The notes under the pieces were generated by a model that was not told the origin of the DNA, did not search any database, and saw only the letters and a program-made list of their open reading frames with translations. Made by a program: the position numbers and the translations under genes. Shown one piece after another: positions 3,973 to 61,365 of a stretch of DNA of 64,000 nt. How positions within the stretch are numbered: position 1 is the first letter of the stretch; every line of letters starts with the position of its first letter. The stretch is from Eledone cirrhosa (taxonomy: Eukaryota): contig OZ024742.1 in the NCBI GenBank assembly GCA_964016885.1, positions 287,432,001 to 287,496,000 of the forward strand. The letters are read 5' to 3'.

Positions 3973-4329
3973 TGTGAAAACAATGAAATTCAACAAAATA
4001 CGGGTAATTCATAGTAAAACTCATTATTTTACGATCGTTTCTGGGGGGTAGTTCTCCGTATGTTCATTTTATTAGTGATCTATGTAAAATATATTACAAA
4101 TTATCAAAGTAAGATAATATACATACGTCTTCCCTACCCGCCGAAATAATTTCTGAAGACGGCGGGTAAGGAAGACGTATGTATATTATCTTACTTTGAT
4201 AATTTGTAATATATTTTACATAGATCACTAATAAAATGAACATACGGAGAACTACCCCCCAGAAACGATCGTAAAATAATGAGTTTTACTATGAATTACC
4301 CGTATTTTGTTGAATTTCATTGTTTTCAC
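3973..4329. repeat. ~170-bp-arm inverted repeat (PLE pLTR-like fold-back) next to (TA)n
   Basis: 3973-4143 is the near-perfect reverse complement of 4160-4329, with a ~16-nt spacer. Confidence 0.9.
4146..4280 (+). ncRNA. Type I hammerhead ribozyme motif with long stem II
   Basis: CTGAAGA at 4153-4159; stem II GGCGGGTA/TACCCCCC plus CGTATG/CATACG; GAAA at 4262; palindromic stem III ACGATCGT; GUA triplet; stem I ATTT/AAAT. The basal pair of stem II is a C-A mismatch. Confidence 0.6.
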
Positions 4330-4504
4330 TATTTGTATTATTTTGACTCTCCTTCCAGTGAATTATATCGTTGAAATTTTGTATTTTAAACTTTGCTTCA
4401 CGACATCTTCTCCATACGGATTACATTGAGTTCTTCATACGGCTTAGCCCCTACCATTAATTGGTGGATTTATCTGTATATGTATATATATATATATATA
4501 TATA

Positions 4505-4710
4505 TGGTGGCTGCCAACTCGTTTTCGAGTACAGCCACTACTTTATATCCATGTAGGAGAACCCCTACCGATGCGCTGAACAAGTGTGACTTTTTAGTCC
4601 AGCCAGCGACTTAAAAACTCTGGTACAAACACTACACCTGTGACAATTATTGACACTTAGTGCTGGGCCCATGGTACCATGTGACGACAAGTCCAGAGAG
4701 ATCTCCAGAT
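4505..4710 (-). mobile_element. 3' end of an RTE-like element encoding a C2H2 zinc-finger remnant
   Basis: CSVCTRVFKSLAGLKSHTCSAH; ends GTTGGCAGCCACCA next to (TA)n; homologous to ~63200-63400. Confidence 0.6.
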
Positions 4711-4989
4711 CCAGATATCCAGATATCCAGATATCCAGATATCTCATATATATATATATATACACTCACACATACATACATATGCACACACGCACACACG
4801 CACACACACACATAGTAAGCATGTTAGTGTGTATGTATTTATGTATGTGTGTGTATGCATGTATGTATGAATGTGTGCGTACACAACACACATACATATA
4901 CATGTGTAAAATACTATATACAGGATGTCCTATATATTTCAATATCTCCTCATTGTCTGATAGGTGCCTATCTACTTTCTCACTAATAC

Positions 4990-5172
4990 TTGTTTCTACT
5001 TTTGGCACAAGGCCAGCAATTACCCAGTGCATTACTGGTACGTTATTTTATCGACCCCGTAAGGATGAAAGGCAAAGTTAACCTCGGCGGGATTTGAACT
5101 CAGAATGGCAAGGGCCGTAACTCCATGCATCAAAGCATGGCGGCCAACCTTCTACCGATACTGCCAATCCAC
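4990..5172 (-). mobile_element. tRNA-derived SINE
   Basis: Reverse complement of the 1345-1533 family. Confidence 0.85.
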
Positions 5173-5387
5173 AATGCTGTAGTTTTCAAAGAAACACTGC
5201 TTGCTCTTTTATCTCACCAGGCCGTTCGATTGGCTCTTCCCGGTAGCATGTCTTACTAGAAATAGCAGCTAAATTATTCCTGAACTCACACTCTATCGTG
5301 TATAGGTAAAAAGATAGGATGGTTACAAGAGGAATGCCTTTGAGTACGGGTCTGTTCGATATCGATCAGAATTGGTTAGGTATTAAA

Positions 5388-5502
5388 TTACTACTACTAC
5401 TACTACTATTACTACTACTACTACTACTACTACTACTACTACTACTTCTACTACTACTACTACTACTACTACTACTACTACTACTACTACTACTACTACT
5501 AC
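5388..5502. repeat. (CTA)n microsatellite
   Basis: Directly visible. Confidence 0.95.
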
Positions 5503-6009
5503 AAGCACAACTATAATCAGCATATTTATATATATATATATGGAAGTGCTTACACAACAGTTAGTTCACCATACCGAGAACAATTGTTTCACCTTAGCGG
5601 ATCCTCAGCTCGGAATGGGCATGGTTATAGGAACCGTATAGATGATTAAAATGTATTAAATAAGAATGATTAAATGAAAGCGAAAATTATTTATTGATTT
5701 GAAAATATTATTGGATATATCGTTTTTCCGTAAAAAATGTTTTTATTCGTCAAAGAGTTTTTAATTTAGTTGAAATCTGTGTGTCAAGAAGTAAAGCGTC
5801 AATAGAAAAGAAATCATTCTTATATCATGTGAAAACCGGAATGCCTAGTCATGCCTCACATGCAAATACTAGAAATGGCCAAGAACAACACATGAAGCAA
5901 TAAAGTAGTGACAAATGACATTAAGAATAGTGATGATTCTTAGTTGTATAACATTAGATGAGAGCCATCATAACCTTTGGAACTTTGAACACTGTCACGA
6001 CAACATCAC

Positions 6010-6135
6010 ACAATGAACAATGTTGTTTGGTTTCACCAGTAGGGACATAAATACAGAGCTTTAATTGGCTTCCAACTCTTAAGCAACCTATATAAATGTG
6101 GTCATCACCGAAGCAAGATATCTTCTCATCTGTTT
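6010..6135 (-). pseudogene. Relic of a Helitron RepHel / Pif1-type helicase C-terminus
   Basis: SCFGDDHIYIGCLRVGSQLKLCIYVPTGETK resembles the helicase motif VI region CFSHGQLYVACSRVG...TKNIVY. Confidence 0.5.
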
Positions 6136-6990
6136 CTGCTGCCCTTAGAAAACAATAATGTTTAGAAGCTGAGGTCTTTGTATGTGTGGGGCATCTTTTC
6201 CATGTTGATAGAAATATCATTAATAAAAAGAGAAGTATCTTAAGTTACAGAAAAAGCAATAGCAAGGTTAAATGAAACCTCTTGAGTGTACCGCGTACAT
6301 ATAAATTCAATTGTAGCAACATTAAAACTCATAATATAAAATATTTTCGTTAGTTCATGCACACATGTTTCAAAACTATGGTCAACTGTGTAACAGTAAG
6401 TCGTTGTACATAATCAAACTAAACTCACAATTGCCGATGTAATCTGAAATTGCTATCATATTACCCGAGGGAAAAGTCTAAAAAATCTAATTTCAAATTA
6501 CTTCTGCACTACTCATATTGCCCCACTTTATGATTTAGCTAACATGATAAATTCTCATGATCAAAGCTCACGATATGTACAAAACACTTGAAAAATACAA
6601 AATTGTAAGCTAGTCTAAAAATGCGAAATATATTGTCACAAAAATGTAGGATTTTAAAACCACCTCTAATATTTTTATTATGCCTTTAAAAGAGAAAAAC
6701 AACAACGGTGTGTCAACGCCGTTCCATTGTACAACTCATTTTTGCCAGCTGAATGGACTGGAACATCGGGAAATAACGTGTCTTGCTCAAGGACACAATC
6801 GACCCCAGGGCCTTACAATCATGAGCGAAACCTTCTAACAACTAAGCCATATCCCACCTAGGCTAGCTTTGCCTTTCATTCTTACGGGGTCGATAAAATA
6901 AAGCACCAATAACACACTGGAGTCGATTTAATCGACTTTCCCCTCCTCCAAAATGTTTGGCTTTGTGCCTAAATGCGAAACCAAACAAGT

Positions 6991-59067: not shown

Positions 59068-59130
59068 TATTTCGTTATATATATTTCAGGGATATCATAT
59101 TAACAATATGTTATGTCTTCAGACAAAATA
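59068..59130 (-). ncRNA. Type I hammerhead motif, diverged homologue of 39033-39102
   Basis: TATTTTGT-CTGAAGA...GAAA-TATATA-TA|ACGAAATA; compensatory A-U to G-C pair in stem I; the base of stem II is damaged. Confidence 0.6.
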
Positions 59131-59417
59131 CAATATAAACAGTCTTATAAATAAATAAATAGATACGACATACCTTTCAATCACCTTGCATTTGAGTGCT
59201 TTTATATCAGTTATAAATATTTACTCGTTGTTAACCCAACAATTTAAATATAACTTTCCATATATATATATATATATATATATATATATATTTATCCATA
59301 TATATATATATAGTTTAAGTTCACGTCAGTGGCAAGGTGTAGAGCTTGACAGAGTGTAATATAATAATATAATAATACAAGGGCGATTTGTTCAGCCTTC
59401 ATTACGGGTTATTGATT

Positions 59418-59500
59418 GGTGACGCGTTTCGCTGTTGATCATCTCAAGGTTCGATCTGCATCGATCTGGCCCGACTCTGGAATCAAAAGCTCGTCGGACC
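59418..59500 (-). ncRNA. Hammerhead motif, C4 variant
   Basis: GGT-CCGACGA-GCT...AGC-GAAA-CGCG-TC|ACC. Confidence 0.5.
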
Positions 59501-59834
59501 TCTGCTGTAGTAATATCAAAACAACAGCTCCTGATTATTACTGGAATTCTATAAGAATCCATTTTCTATAATTTTCGGCGAGAGCAGGGGAGTGTTTGGT
59601 TTTGATAAACGCCAACAAGCGAGAAACACACTGTCAATCTGTATATATATATATATATATATATATATATATATATATATATATATATATGTATGTATTA
59701 CACACACATATGTATGTATTACACACATTTACATATTTTTGGATGGCCGTTGACCCTTATGAGTTCTTTCGCTCTTTGTCAGGTATTGTTTTTTTGTCCT
59801 GCAGAGTGTCCAATATCACCCTCCTCACCAAGTA

Positions 59835-60356
59835 AACTTGGTGGGGTTACCAGTTTAGTCGCCGACGACCCCACCATGCAACAGGTTGTACTGGGTTACA
59901 TGTTGCGAGTATCACTCAAGAGTATAAATATGTATGTACACATGTACATATGTATGTATATGTATATGTGTATATGCATGTGTGCATGTGTATGTATATA
60001 CACGGGGACATAGAAATAGTCTGGCTAGATACCCGATCGCGTGGTTAAACTACTGGGAGTGAAGGGCCCCTAGCCTTTGTCAGGGCATTCTTCTAGGAGA
60101 AAGCAACTCAGGAAACTGGGATGACTCCGACATAAAACCTGCGTCTCAGTAGTTACCGATGATGTTGATCTTTTCTCCTTTTCGGGTTATAGCTACTGTC
60201 GCTCAGAGAGTGGGATTGGCTCAGTGCACAGTCTTTCCTCACTAAAAAAAAAAAAAATCTTTACGCACAGGCATTGCACGATAGAATAAATTAATAATTA
60301 TTAATAATGGTATGTCGTGCAATGGCCATACTCGATAACGAGGGGGCAGCCATCAT
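59835..60356 (+). mobile_element. Non-autonomous RTE-related element
   Basis: The 3' part GCACAGTCTTTCCTCACT...GGCCATACTCGA...GCAGCCATCAT matches 63474-63600 and resembles the 3' end at 63400. Confidence 0.55.
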
Positions 60357-60947
60357 GTGTATGTATACACACACAAACATATATATATATATATATGTAT
60401 ATATGTGAGTGTGTGTTTATGCATAGATCTAGCGATCCATCCACACATGCATATATATATATATACATAAAAAAATAGATAAAAACTAATTGAACATAGA
60501 ACACTACCCGATGAAATTATCGATAAAAAAAAAATCTCGATTCCATCTAAGAAAAATTATACATGACACAATTAATCGGAAAAAGAGAAGACCTTATAAA
60601 AAGACTGAGAAGTATGTTTATTGAAGTGACACAGGCATACCTGCAAACCCTGTAGACAACAACTGTAAATTCAGATGAGGACGAGGAGGAGGGACCAATA
60701 GAGAACGCCATTTGAAATAAATATTTTCAGTCTTGTAAAAAGAGGAACATTTTGAAAGGTTTATAACTGCTTCAAAGAAGCATTTGACATCTTGAAGTAA
60801 TTCCGAAATATATTGTCAGATTACACCAAAGAATTTATGGTATAACACACACACACACACACACACACACACACACACACACACACACACACACACACAC
60901 ACACACACACACACACACACACACACACACACACACACCTATATATA

Positions 60948-61170
60948 CAGGGTGTCCTCCCCCCCAAAAAAAAAGAATGTATACACAACAAAATCATTAA
61001 AATACGTATTCAAATAAATTCTGTTTTATATGCATTATATATTTTTGGGTGTTTACATACAACTGAATTATGTCTGTAGATAATTTTAATTTTGGGAAAG
61101 GCTGTGCATTCTAATTAATATTGTCTATACTAGTAATCAAAGTGTATATACATTCTTCTGGGACACCCTG
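60948..61170. mobile_element. Tc1/mariner-type MITE
   Basis: TIRs CAGGGTGTCC...AAGAATGTATAC / TATACATTCTT...GGACACCCTG; TA on both sides. Confidence 0.85.
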
Positions 61171-61277
61171 TATATATATATATTAATATATTTCTCTCTC
61201 TATTTATATATATATATATAGAGAGAGAGAGAATAGAAAACGAAAAATCAGTGATGCATCTGAACTCAATTTATTGT

Positions 61278-61365
61278 GTGTTACAATTGTTTCGCCGGCA
61301 GACAGCTCGAGACGCGATCATTGTGTGGATCTGTCCGATTCTGGACCCGCAGGTTCGACGGACAC
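61278..61365 (-). ncRNA. Degenerate hammerhead motif (C4 family, distant)
   Basis: GTGT-CCGTCGA...GAAA-CAATTG-TA|ACAC; palindromic ACAATTGT; A6 is mutated. Confidence 0.45.

What the first reader, a model, noticed from the sequence alone, without database searches (positions are those of the whole stretch)
4146..61365. A collection of type I hammerhead ribozymes with palindromic stem III in unrelated short repeats
Seen: at least seven motifs from four sequence families, at 4146-4280(+), 8485-8576(-), 39033-39102(+), 40675-40763(+), 59068-59130(-), 59418-59500(-) and 61278-61365(-). Each has a self-complementary stem III (ACGATCGT, ACTACGTAGT, ATATATAT, ACGCGCGT, ACGCGT, ACAATTGT), and several have stem II insertions of 30-100 nt. 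Established: Penelope pLTRs and retrozymes carry type I hammerheads with short palindromic stem III that are thought to cleave as dimers. Inference: this genome has a very dense and diverse PLE/retrozyme ribozyme population, roughly one per 9 kb here, which standard models may miss because of the long stem II and core variants.
Basis: partly seen in the sequence, partly recalled or inferred. Interest (0 to 1): 0.75.

Follow-up and report, generated by a model that had tools for sequence, protein, structure and literature searches.

The report
Penelope retroelement hammerheads with drifting cores
These are real hammerhead-ribozyme motifs at the tail ends of Penelope-type jumping genes, about one every 15-20 kb in samples across this genome; they likely cut RNA only in pairs, and two subfamilies spread to hundreds of copies with a doubly altered catalytic core, so cutting is likely slow or dispensable for copying.

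Summary
All seven motifs are present; the window holds 13, not 7. They are not chance: 69 canonical-core, palindromic motifs in 99 evenly spaced 10-kb genome samples, against 0 in reversed sequence and 1 in five shuffles (roughly 1.5-2 x 10^5 genome-wide). Rfam finds none. Six of the seven mark the 3' ends of 5'-truncated Penelope-like elements in (TA)n, with inverted partners and two fixed ends downstream of the cut site; five of them belong to families traced to a Hydra-clade endonuclease. One (8485, U3-A8 core) lies in a 593-nt retrozyme-like repeat. This is a known kind. Variant features: a structured stem II of 28-102 nt (published Hydra motifs: 26 or less), a pyrimidine mismatch kept at stem II pair 4, family-wide U4C, and a CCGUCGA core (U4C+A6U) fixed in two subfamilies that do not form one clade. 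Folding favours double hammerheads, but copies run through the cut site and non-array copies lack a tandem partner, so most are likely inert and templates were likely uncut or religated. Cleavage is untested. The scan reported long arms and U4C before in this genome.

The parts
4146..4280 (+). Type I hammerhead, family C: core CUGAAGA (4153-4159), 102-nt stem II, palindrome A-CGAUCG-U, predicted cut after 4273; matches its family
   Evidence: family copies; Hydra endonuclease end 1.0-1.2 kb upstream in L284, L292, L304
3964..4143 (-). Inverted 5'-truncated copy of the same element (lacks the 5' half-core), ending in (TA)n at the short end; the direct copy carries the long tail to about 4485
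5569..5618 (-).
8485..8576 (-). Hammerhead, family D: U3-A8 core UUGAUAA, 59-nt stem II, A-CUACGUAG-U, predicted cut after 8490; family-wide, copies 96-99% alike
8243..9002 (-). Retrozyme-like repeat: 593-nt unit plus terminal overlap (8306-8408 = 8900-9002); two units in tandem in L271
11344..11386 (-).
   Evidence: arrays of 420-490-nt units in L188 and L354
11776..11818 (-). Compact hammerhead, family E, unit 1 of the tandem
36545..36616 (-). Damaged inverted partner of the 39033 motif (extra A's after GAAA); left arm of a 2.6-kb head-to-head insertion
37490..37700 (+). Remnant of the C-terminal end of a Hydra-type GIY-YIG endonuclease, 1.4 kb upstream of the 39033 motif
   Evidence: translation; 82-97% DNA match to L280, where a longer endonuclease precedes the same motif; tblastn in the window alone is weak, E 0.16
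39033..39102 (+). Hammerhead, family A1: canonical CUGAUGA, 10-bp stem I, 31-nt stem II with C.C at pair 4, A-UAUAUA-U, predicted cut after 39092
40675..40763 (+). Hammerhead, family B (family core CCGACGA, U4C); this copy has a private G8A that breaks the C3-G8 pair, likely dead
   Evidence: endonuclease end 1.18 kb upstream in L015, contiguous with L006 and L023
55953..56878 (+). Fragment of a Hydra-clade reverse transcriptase (DKT motif); belongs to the L265 family, not shown to be the parent of the motif at 57926
57926..57980 (+).
58219..58288 (-).
59068..59130 (-). Hammerhead, family A3 (CUGAAGA); private 3-nt deletion at the base of stem II, likely misfolded
   Evidence: endonuclease hits 1.5-1.6 kb upstream of both copies in L266
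59418..59500 (-). Hammerhead, family B (CCGACGA, U4C), 60-nt stem II; stem III shortened from CGCGCG to CGCG, stem I 3 bp
61278..61365 (-). Hammerhead, family F, subfamily with core CCGUCGA (U4C+A6U), 61-nt stem II, A-CAAUUG-U, predicted cut after 61282; element ends about 50 nt later in (TA)n
61396..61445 (+). Inverted piece of the family F 'tail' at the 5' junction, the Penelope-type inversion signature
55475..55570 (-). 3' half only of a family D motif (GAAA-palindrome-UC and downstream strand)
58740..58812 (+). Degraded hammerhead (core CUAACGA) of a family with a non-palindromic 3-bp stem III (A-CCACUGG-U)

Best explanation
The motifs are type I hammerhead folds carried at the 3' ends of 5'-truncated Penelope-like retroelements (mainly Hydra clade) and of non-coding retrozyme-like repeats, and they likely cut RNA only as double hammerheads joined through the palindromic stem III, slowly, and likely not as a required step of insertion. 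Shown: the motifs, their covarying helices, their position 35-250 nt before a (TA)n junction, inverted partners, and upstream Hydra endonuclease in four families. Inferred: a partial-tandem master element or retrozyme array is transcribed; two motifs pair their 6-10-nt palindromes into one helix and each cuts at UH, giving unit-length RNA; the element's RT-endonuclease nicks (TA)n and starts copying at one of two sites downstream of the cut site on RNA that is uncut (or religated) there; the dispersed truncated copies are mostly inert. Because copying does not need the cut, lineages with a long, stable stem II could fix U4C, A6U or a 1-nt insertion while keeping C3, G5, G8, A9, GAAA and UH.
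For: Descriptor counts 69 in 989,600 nt against 0 reversed and 1 in five shuffles. With stem III left free, 31 of 44 hits are perfect palindromes, 8 one pair off, 5 short hairpins; controls 0. In 21 A/G/H-type copies 89.8% of cells pair and 15 of 22 pairs change on both sides, including inside the palindrome; 12 of 19 pairs of the long stem II of the B/F lineage are compensatory. Monomer stem III is only 1-3 bp and destabilising in 9 of 14 constructs; the double fold is 11-20 kcal/mol better than two monomers in 14 of 14. Six of six families examined end at two fixed distances past the cut site, e.g. F about 50 and 135 nt, C 60 and 205, D 75 and 245, as for the two RT start sites of the anole element, whose hammerhead was protein-assisted and not needed for insertion in vitro (PMC11167929). 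Hydra endonuclease contiguous upstream of families C, B, A1 and hit upstream of A3 and H; a near-complete ORF ends in such a motif. Variant cores are inherited: family B 77 of the first 100 of 264 matches have C4 and the 18 with T4 match the CpG decay rate at position 7 (21 of 100); F 96 of 100 have C4, 68 have U6, 1 is canonical, of 1,522; a second subfamily has CCGUCGA in 95 of 100, of 613. Subfamily-level changes fall at U4, A6 and an insertion after A6, the places of known slow natural variants (PMC3088659).
Against: No cleavage, 5'-OH end or circle could be observed. The energy comparison always favours a longer helix and ignores concentration and tertiary contacts; in no construct is the monomer hammerhead the minimum-energy fold. 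Outside the CUAG arrays 0 of 41 sampled motifs have a same-strand, same-palindrome partner within 3.5 kb (29 solo, 12 inverted only, 10-kb stretches, so edges hide some), so the tandem masters that the model needs were not seen for the Hydra families. An A6C change cost a hammerhead orders of magnitude in Mg2+ (PMC7151607), so U4C+A6U may be dead rather than slow. The ORF link is weak for F (one endonuclease 3.0 kb upstream in L277, continuity not shown), absent for G, A2, D and E. Other families in the same genome have non-palindromic stems III, so palindromes are not a general requirement. The loci used for end mapping were picked by the motif itself, so copies starting at the cut site would be under-sampled.
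Confidence: 0.68

Rival explanations
1. In the long-stem Hydra families the fold is kept as an RNA scaffold (RT docking or RNA dimerisation through the palindrome) and the variant cores no longer cut at all.
For: CCGUCGA is fixed in two subfamilies of about 1,000 (68% of 1,522) and about 580 exact matches (95% of 613); the 5' half-core varies between F subfamilies while GAAA-palindrome-UA hardly does; copies run through the cut site; core mutants of the anole element still insert in vitro (PMC11167929).
Against: C3, G5, G8, A9, GAAA and UH stay fixed in all subfamily majorities, which a dead core would not need; 44 of 46 strict hits in the first 80 samples have a canonical or U3-A8 core (though the descriptor favours these).
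Confidence: 0.25
2. All families, not only D and E, move through cleaved and religated circular RNA; copies pass through the cut site because the template is a circle.
For: Head-to-tail arrays of 420-490-nt units with a motif in each and the 593-nt D unit with terminal overlap fit published retrozymes (PMC7229834, passages).
Against: No same-strand tandem among 41 non-CUAG motifs; weak variant cores would make circles poorly.
Confidence: 0.2
3. The motifs cut as monomers, with a 2-bp stem III held by the element's protein and by contacts made through the stem II mismatch; the palindrome is a by-product of a short hairpin in CpG/TA-rich sequence.
For: Monomer stem III is neutral or slightly favourable in 5 of 14 constructs (C, D, 40675, F and the F majority); the anole motif cut only with protein; published Hydra motifs mostly have non-palindromic hairpins.
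Against: The two central positions, unpaired in a monomer, stay self-complementary in 21 of 21 copies with changes on both sides, and at least 12 different palindromes occur.
Confidence: 0.15
4. The motifs are chance matches in AT- and microsatellite-rich sequence.
For: Loose descriptors with two core deviations do give chance hits (4-5 per 800 kb in controls).
Against: 69 against 0 and 0.2 for canonical cores; compensatory changes; fixed place in elements.
Confidence: 0.01

Closest known systems
Hammerheads of Hydra-clade Penelope-like elements (Craig et al. 2021, PMC8557442; passages incl. section 11, supplement search and part 2 of 59 with File S2)
   Same: Type I motif near the 3' end of a C-terminal-endonuclease PLE with DKT and CxCx5C, insertion in (TA)n, 5'-inverted copies, frequent mismatch at the first pair of stem II.
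   Different: In File S2 all 26 Hydra rows have a canonical CUGANGA core, spacers of 26 nt or less, and 1 of 26 has a perfectly palindromic stem III; here spacers reach 102 nt and more, palindromes dominate, cores are often variant, 3' UTRs reach 1-1.6 kb and tails 70-170 nt.
Minimal hammerheads of metazoan PLEs (Cervera and De la Pena 2014, PMC4209133; parts 1-2 of 4)
   Same: Palindromic short helix III, dimer model, U3-A8 variant, longer helix II, thousands of mostly solitary or opposite-strand copies grouped in many families, low activity in vitro.
   Different: Helix II of 7-8 bp there against 10-35 bp rods here; counts of 2,000-9,000 per genome there against an estimated 1.5-2 x 10^5; no U4C or A6U in the parts read.
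Metazoan non-LTR retrozymes (PMC7229834, passages; bioRxiv 10.64898/2026.07.22.740005, part 1 of 5)
   Same: Non-coding tandem units with one type I motif each (families E, D); proposed PLE-derived; axolotl has 126,247 motifs.
   Different: D has a 593-nt unit (published 150-450), a U3-A8 core and a 59-nt stem II; density here is about ten times that of axolotl if its genome is about 32 Gb (size recalled, not from a call).
Natural core variants U4C, A6C, A6a (Perreault et al. 2011, PMC3088659, passages and section 8; Naghdi et al. 2020, PMC7151607, part 1 of 4)
   Same: Changes at the same core places; slow but detectable cleavage; A6C prefers Mn2+.
   Different: Those are single isolates from viroids, phages and bacteria; here the variants are fixed in hundreds to thousands of copies, and A6U together with U4C was not found in the texts searched (no paper listed held the term A6U).
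PAc Poseidon element of the green anole (Frangieh et al. 2024, PMC11167929; parts 1-2 of 4)
   Same: Two RT start sites downstream of the hammerhead explain the tail; template uncut.
   Different: Different PLE clade; its motif overlaps the ORF start and tail is 30-40 bp.

Membership tests
Type I hammerhead ribozyme | Order: stem I strand, CUGANGA, stem II, GAAA, stem III, UH, stem I strand | tested here: met
   7 of 7; helices covary
Type I hammerhead ribozyme | Canonical core C3 U4 G5 A6 N7 G8 A9 | tested here: not met
   Met in 3 of 7 (4146, 39033, 59068); 8485 has the known U3-A8 swap; 59418 U4C; 61278 U4C+A6U; 40675 U4C+G8A
Type I hammerhead ribozyme | Match to an Rfam hammerhead model | tested here: not met
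   0 hits at gathering score in the window and 14 loci; none up to E 10 on 11250-11450 and 38950-39130
Type I hammerhead ribozyme | Self-cleavage after UH | not testable with these tools
   No bench data; no run on record as RNA was listed
PLE dimer-type minimal hammerhead | Short self-complementary stem III | tested here: met
   7 of 7; 31 of 44 unconstrained hits perfect palindromes
PLE dimer-type minimal hammerhead | Two motifs in tandem on one transcript | tested here: inconclusive
   Met for E and D; 0 of 41 other sampled motifs; no full partial-tandem master recovered
Hydra clade PLE | RT with DKT motif | tested here: met
   Window 56070 region and L261, L264, L265, L268; this RT family owns the compact CAAUUG motif, not the seven flagged ones
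Hydra clade PLE | C-terminal GIY-YIG endonuclease with CxCx5C linker upstream of the motif | tested here: met
   L265, L284 (C), L280 (A1), L015 (B); A3 by tblastn only; F one distant hit; Pfam gave no hit for L265, so the call rests on motifs
Hydra clade PLE | Insertion in (TA)n, 5' truncation, inverted copy, tail at one end | tested here: met
Hydra clade PLE | RT falls in the Hydra clade in a tree; CCHH motif absent | not tested
   No reference proteins were loaded
Non-LTR retrozyme | Non-coding tandem units of a few hundred nt, one type I motif each | tested here: met
   E 420-492 nt, D 593 nt; no ORF link found (one search hits are neighbours)
Non-LTR retrozyme | Expressed as circular RNA | not testable with these tools
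   one search listed no RNA holder

The most novel reading that the evidence does not exclude
Hydra-clade retroelements have evolved a distinct hammerhead subtype in which a long stem II with a fixed pyrimidine mismatch at pair 4 and a conserved internal loop supplies a tertiary or protein contact that rescues otherwise crippling cores, so that CCGUCGA (U4C+A6U) arose twice and still cuts, as a protein-, dimer- or Mn2+-gated ribozyme; the genome then holds a graded natural series of hammerhead cores, each amplified hundreds to thousands of times.
Probability: 0.25. Interest if true: 0.7.

Novelty: new variant of a known kind. Interest (0 to 1): 0.42.

Why it matters
What hammerheads do for Penelope-like elements is open: processing signal, dispensable passenger or protein-binding scaffold. 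Here sister subfamilies with canonical, U3-A8, U4C, U4C+A6U and insertion cores all amplified, so cleavage rate can be set against transposition success on natural sequences. The census also shows that Rfam and short-spacer descriptors miss on the order of 10^5 motifs in one animal genome. The class itself is known, most genomic copies are likely inert, and this scan has already described long arms and U4C in the same genome.

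Tried and rejected
Rfam: whole-window E-value scan showed only microsatellite-driven miRNA hits in the 150 of 275 rows displayed; 0 at gathering score. Naiad origin: considered first, rejected because the RT has DKT and the endonuclease is C-terminal. That the RT at 55953-56878 is the parent of the 57926 motif: not supported, its family ends in the compact CAAUUG motif, and the endonuclease near G in L140 lies downstream. 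That family D belongs to the neighbouring ORFs in L271: rejected, it is a separate insertion in (TA)n. That CCG cores are decay: rejected, decay runs the other way. Expression: no RNA holder listed; contigs of two runs of unrecorded kind laid on 8250-9000 gave no information on cleavage or circles. Pfam did not recognise the Hydra ORF. Lunse, Weinberg and Breaker 2017 (RNA Biol 14:1499) is not held; it is known here only through a review passage (PMC6765202) and may already list such variants. PMC5785220 was a wrong paper and was not used. A repeat annotation of Octopus vulgaris (PMC13282606, passages) has no mention of hammerheads. Candidate cores at 207, 2513, 48639, 53521 and 62550 had no support from relatives. 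Full-length parents of F, G, A2, D and E were not recovered; the sample stayed at 99 stretches, with no stretch from the many small contigs.

Full report
Observation. All seven motifs lie at the stated places with the stated palindromes. Each reads as a type I hammerhead: a stem I strand, a 7-nt half-core, a stem II of 28-102 nt, GAAA, a self-complementary stretch, UH and the second stem I strand. Descriptor scans give 5-6 canonical-core hits in the window against 0 in shuffled or reversed sequence. Three of the seven are damaged relative to their family majority (40675 G8A, 59068 deletion in stem II, 59418 deletion in stem III).

Density. The window is G000:C3:287432001-287496000 of a 3.0-Gb animal assembly; its repeats recall an octopus, which is recalled and echoed by earlier notes, not tested. 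In 99 evenly spaced 10-kb stretches (989,600 nt) the strict descriptor finds 69 canonical or U3-A8 motifs in 33 of 99 stretches, against 0 in reversed sequence and 1 in five shuffles; 21 of the 69 come from two tandem arrays. The stratified estimate is 2.2 x 10^5 (bootstrap 1.2-3.5 x 10^5); counting each array once gives 50 per Mb, about 1.5 x 10^5 (my arithmetic). The palindrome is not imposed by the descriptor: with stem III free, 31 of 44 hits are perfect palindromes, 8 are one pair off and 5 are short hairpins. About 20 families were grouped from the loci in hand, and more with non-palindromic stems exist. Rfam reports nothing in the window or in 14 loci holding 31 descriptor motifs, nor for one compact and one long motif at E up to 10.

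What carries them. The window holds an RT fragment with DKT, the mark of the Hydra clade (PMC8557442); the first look found 28,374 candidates for it in the genome. A near-complete copy (L265) has RT, a CxCx5C linker, a C-terminal endonuclease and, in its 3' UTR, a compact CAAUUG motif shortly before (TA)n. Endonuclease ends lie 1.0-1.2 kb upstream of family C (4146), 1.18 kb upstream of B (40675, 59418), 1.0-1.4 kb upstream of A1 (39033) with shared DNA in between, and 1.5-1.6 kb upstream of A3 (59068). For F (61278) there is one endonuclease 3.0 kb upstream and about 1 kb of shared UTR, suggestive only; F is tied to B by homology. Family D (8485) is a 593-nt non-coding unit, tandem in L271, and E forms arrays of 420-492-nt units: retrozyme-like. 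Copies are 5'-truncated, often with an inverted partner, and six of six families examined end at two fixed distances past the cut site, the Penelope tail.

Structure. In 21 A/G/H-type copies 89.8% of cells pair and 15 of 22 pairs change on both sides; slid controls reach at most 54.6% (related sequences inflate such counts). Pair 4 of stem II is unpaired in 20 of 21, with an invariant 5' C; across 17 family majorities it is pyrimidine-pyrimidine in 11 while pairs 2, 3, 5, 6 and 7 are formed in 16-17 of 17 with several pair types. The 11 may share descent; J, M, P, Q and R lack the mismatch and D has a bulge instead. The 60-nt arm of the B/F lineage folds as a rod with 12 of 19 pairs compensatory and a conserved internal loop. 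Published Hydra motifs have spacers of 26 nt or less, canonical cores, and 1 palindrome in 26 rows (File S2).

Core variants. In B, C4 is ancestral: 77 of the first 100 of 264 matches; the 18 with T4 equal CpG decay at position 7. In F, 96 of the first 100 of 1,522 matches have C4, 68 have U6, one is canonical; other F subfamilies carry a 1-nt insertion. The CCGUCGA subfamily of F is 97% alike to its majority (19 copies). A B-related subfamily also has CCGUCGA, 95 of the first 100 of 613. A tree of 63 of 86 copies (at most six per core and palindrome type, inversion artefacts dropped) built without the core rejects one clade for the eight CCGUCGA rows (p-AU 4e-7); only two of these rows, from one locus, represent the second subfamily, and the tree is unrooted, so one gain with reversions or a template switch is not excluded. 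C3, G5, G8, A9, GAAA and UH stay fixed; changes fall where slow natural variants are known (U4C, A6C, A6a; PMC3088659). A6C can cost orders of magnitude in Mg2+ but not Mn2+ (PMC7151607).

Mechanism. Shown: anatomy, covariation, position and ends. Computed: stem III gives 1-3 bp in a monomer and 6-10 bp in a double hammerhead, 11-20 kcal/mol better than two monomers in 14 of 14 constructs, a nearest-neighbour figure that ignores concentration. Inferred: cutting happens in tandem transcripts of masters or arrays, and copying starts downstream of the cut site on uncut or religated RNA, since 203 of 203 post-cleavage strands found are still preceded by stem III or a decayed form of it (one cut by a locus edge; loci mostly chosen by the motif). 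Outside the CUAG arrays none of 41 sampled motifs has a same-strand partner, so dispersed copies are likely inert. This agrees with the anole element, whose hammerhead cut only with protein and was not needed for insertion (PMC11167929). Whether the variant cores are slow or dead is open.

Comparison and novelty. It works like the dimeric minimal hammerheads of PLEs (PMC4209133) and sits in Hydra-clade elements and retrozyme-like repeats, all described. Searches for octopus plus hammerhead ribozyme, for Penelope-like plus octopus genome or Hydra clade and for A6U/U4C listed no paper describing long-armed or CCGUCGA motifs; Lunse et al. 2017 and the supplements of PMC4209133 were not seen and may bear on this. 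Earlier notes of this scan report long arms, U4C and uncut templates in the same genome; these are not independent support. Verdict: real, new variant of a known kind, interest 0.42.

Noticed in passing
window 47175-47290, 51996-52111, 61670-61750 (3' halves); tail only at 2252-2376: A very common family, nearly always 5'-truncated into a perfect inversion, whose longer copies (L180, L242, L271, L041) show a U3-A8 core and an 18-nt near-palindromic stem III that can fold alone (6 bp) or pair with a partner; 51 matches in the loci held.
   Followed up: partly
window 9003-9300, 46390-46680, 51190-51480: A (TA)n-inserted family with CUGAAAA followed by GAAA and several crossing complementary blocks; it does not fit type I and may be the rearranged hammerhead of earlier notes; 62 blast rows in the loci held.
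   Followed up: no
window 63725-63771 (-): Degraded copy of an abundant minimal hammerhead family (CUGAUGA, short stem II, GAAA-CG-UU).
   Followed up: partly
window 14247-29920 (+): Three tandem copies of an L1/Tx1-like LINE, 80-86% alike, with endonuclease and RT ORFs up to 990 aa.
   Followed up: no
window 30541-33716 (-), 40920-43271, 55120-55448: RTE-type LINE copies, one with an internal inversion; family name from translated motifs, recalled.
   Followed up: no
window 817-1734 (-) and 62330-62452 (+): Further diverged Hydra-type RT fragments (38-44% identity to L265).
   Followed up: no
L271:2115-3296 (-): An RT ORF of another Penelope-like clade (Pfam RVT_1, E 1e-4), so more than one PLE clade is present.
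   Followed up: no
families A1, A2, A3 (e.g. L162, L192, L340): Majority stem III is often UAUGUA, which self-pairs with two G.U wobbles; UACGUA and UAUAUA also occur.
   Followed up: partly
window 46347-48163 and 51144-52973: A 1.8-kb segmental duplication at 97-99% identity containing several nested repeats.
   Followed up: no
families A, B, C, D, F, O: Tails between the two element ends are 70-170 nt, longer than the published 30-40 bp.
   Followed up: partly
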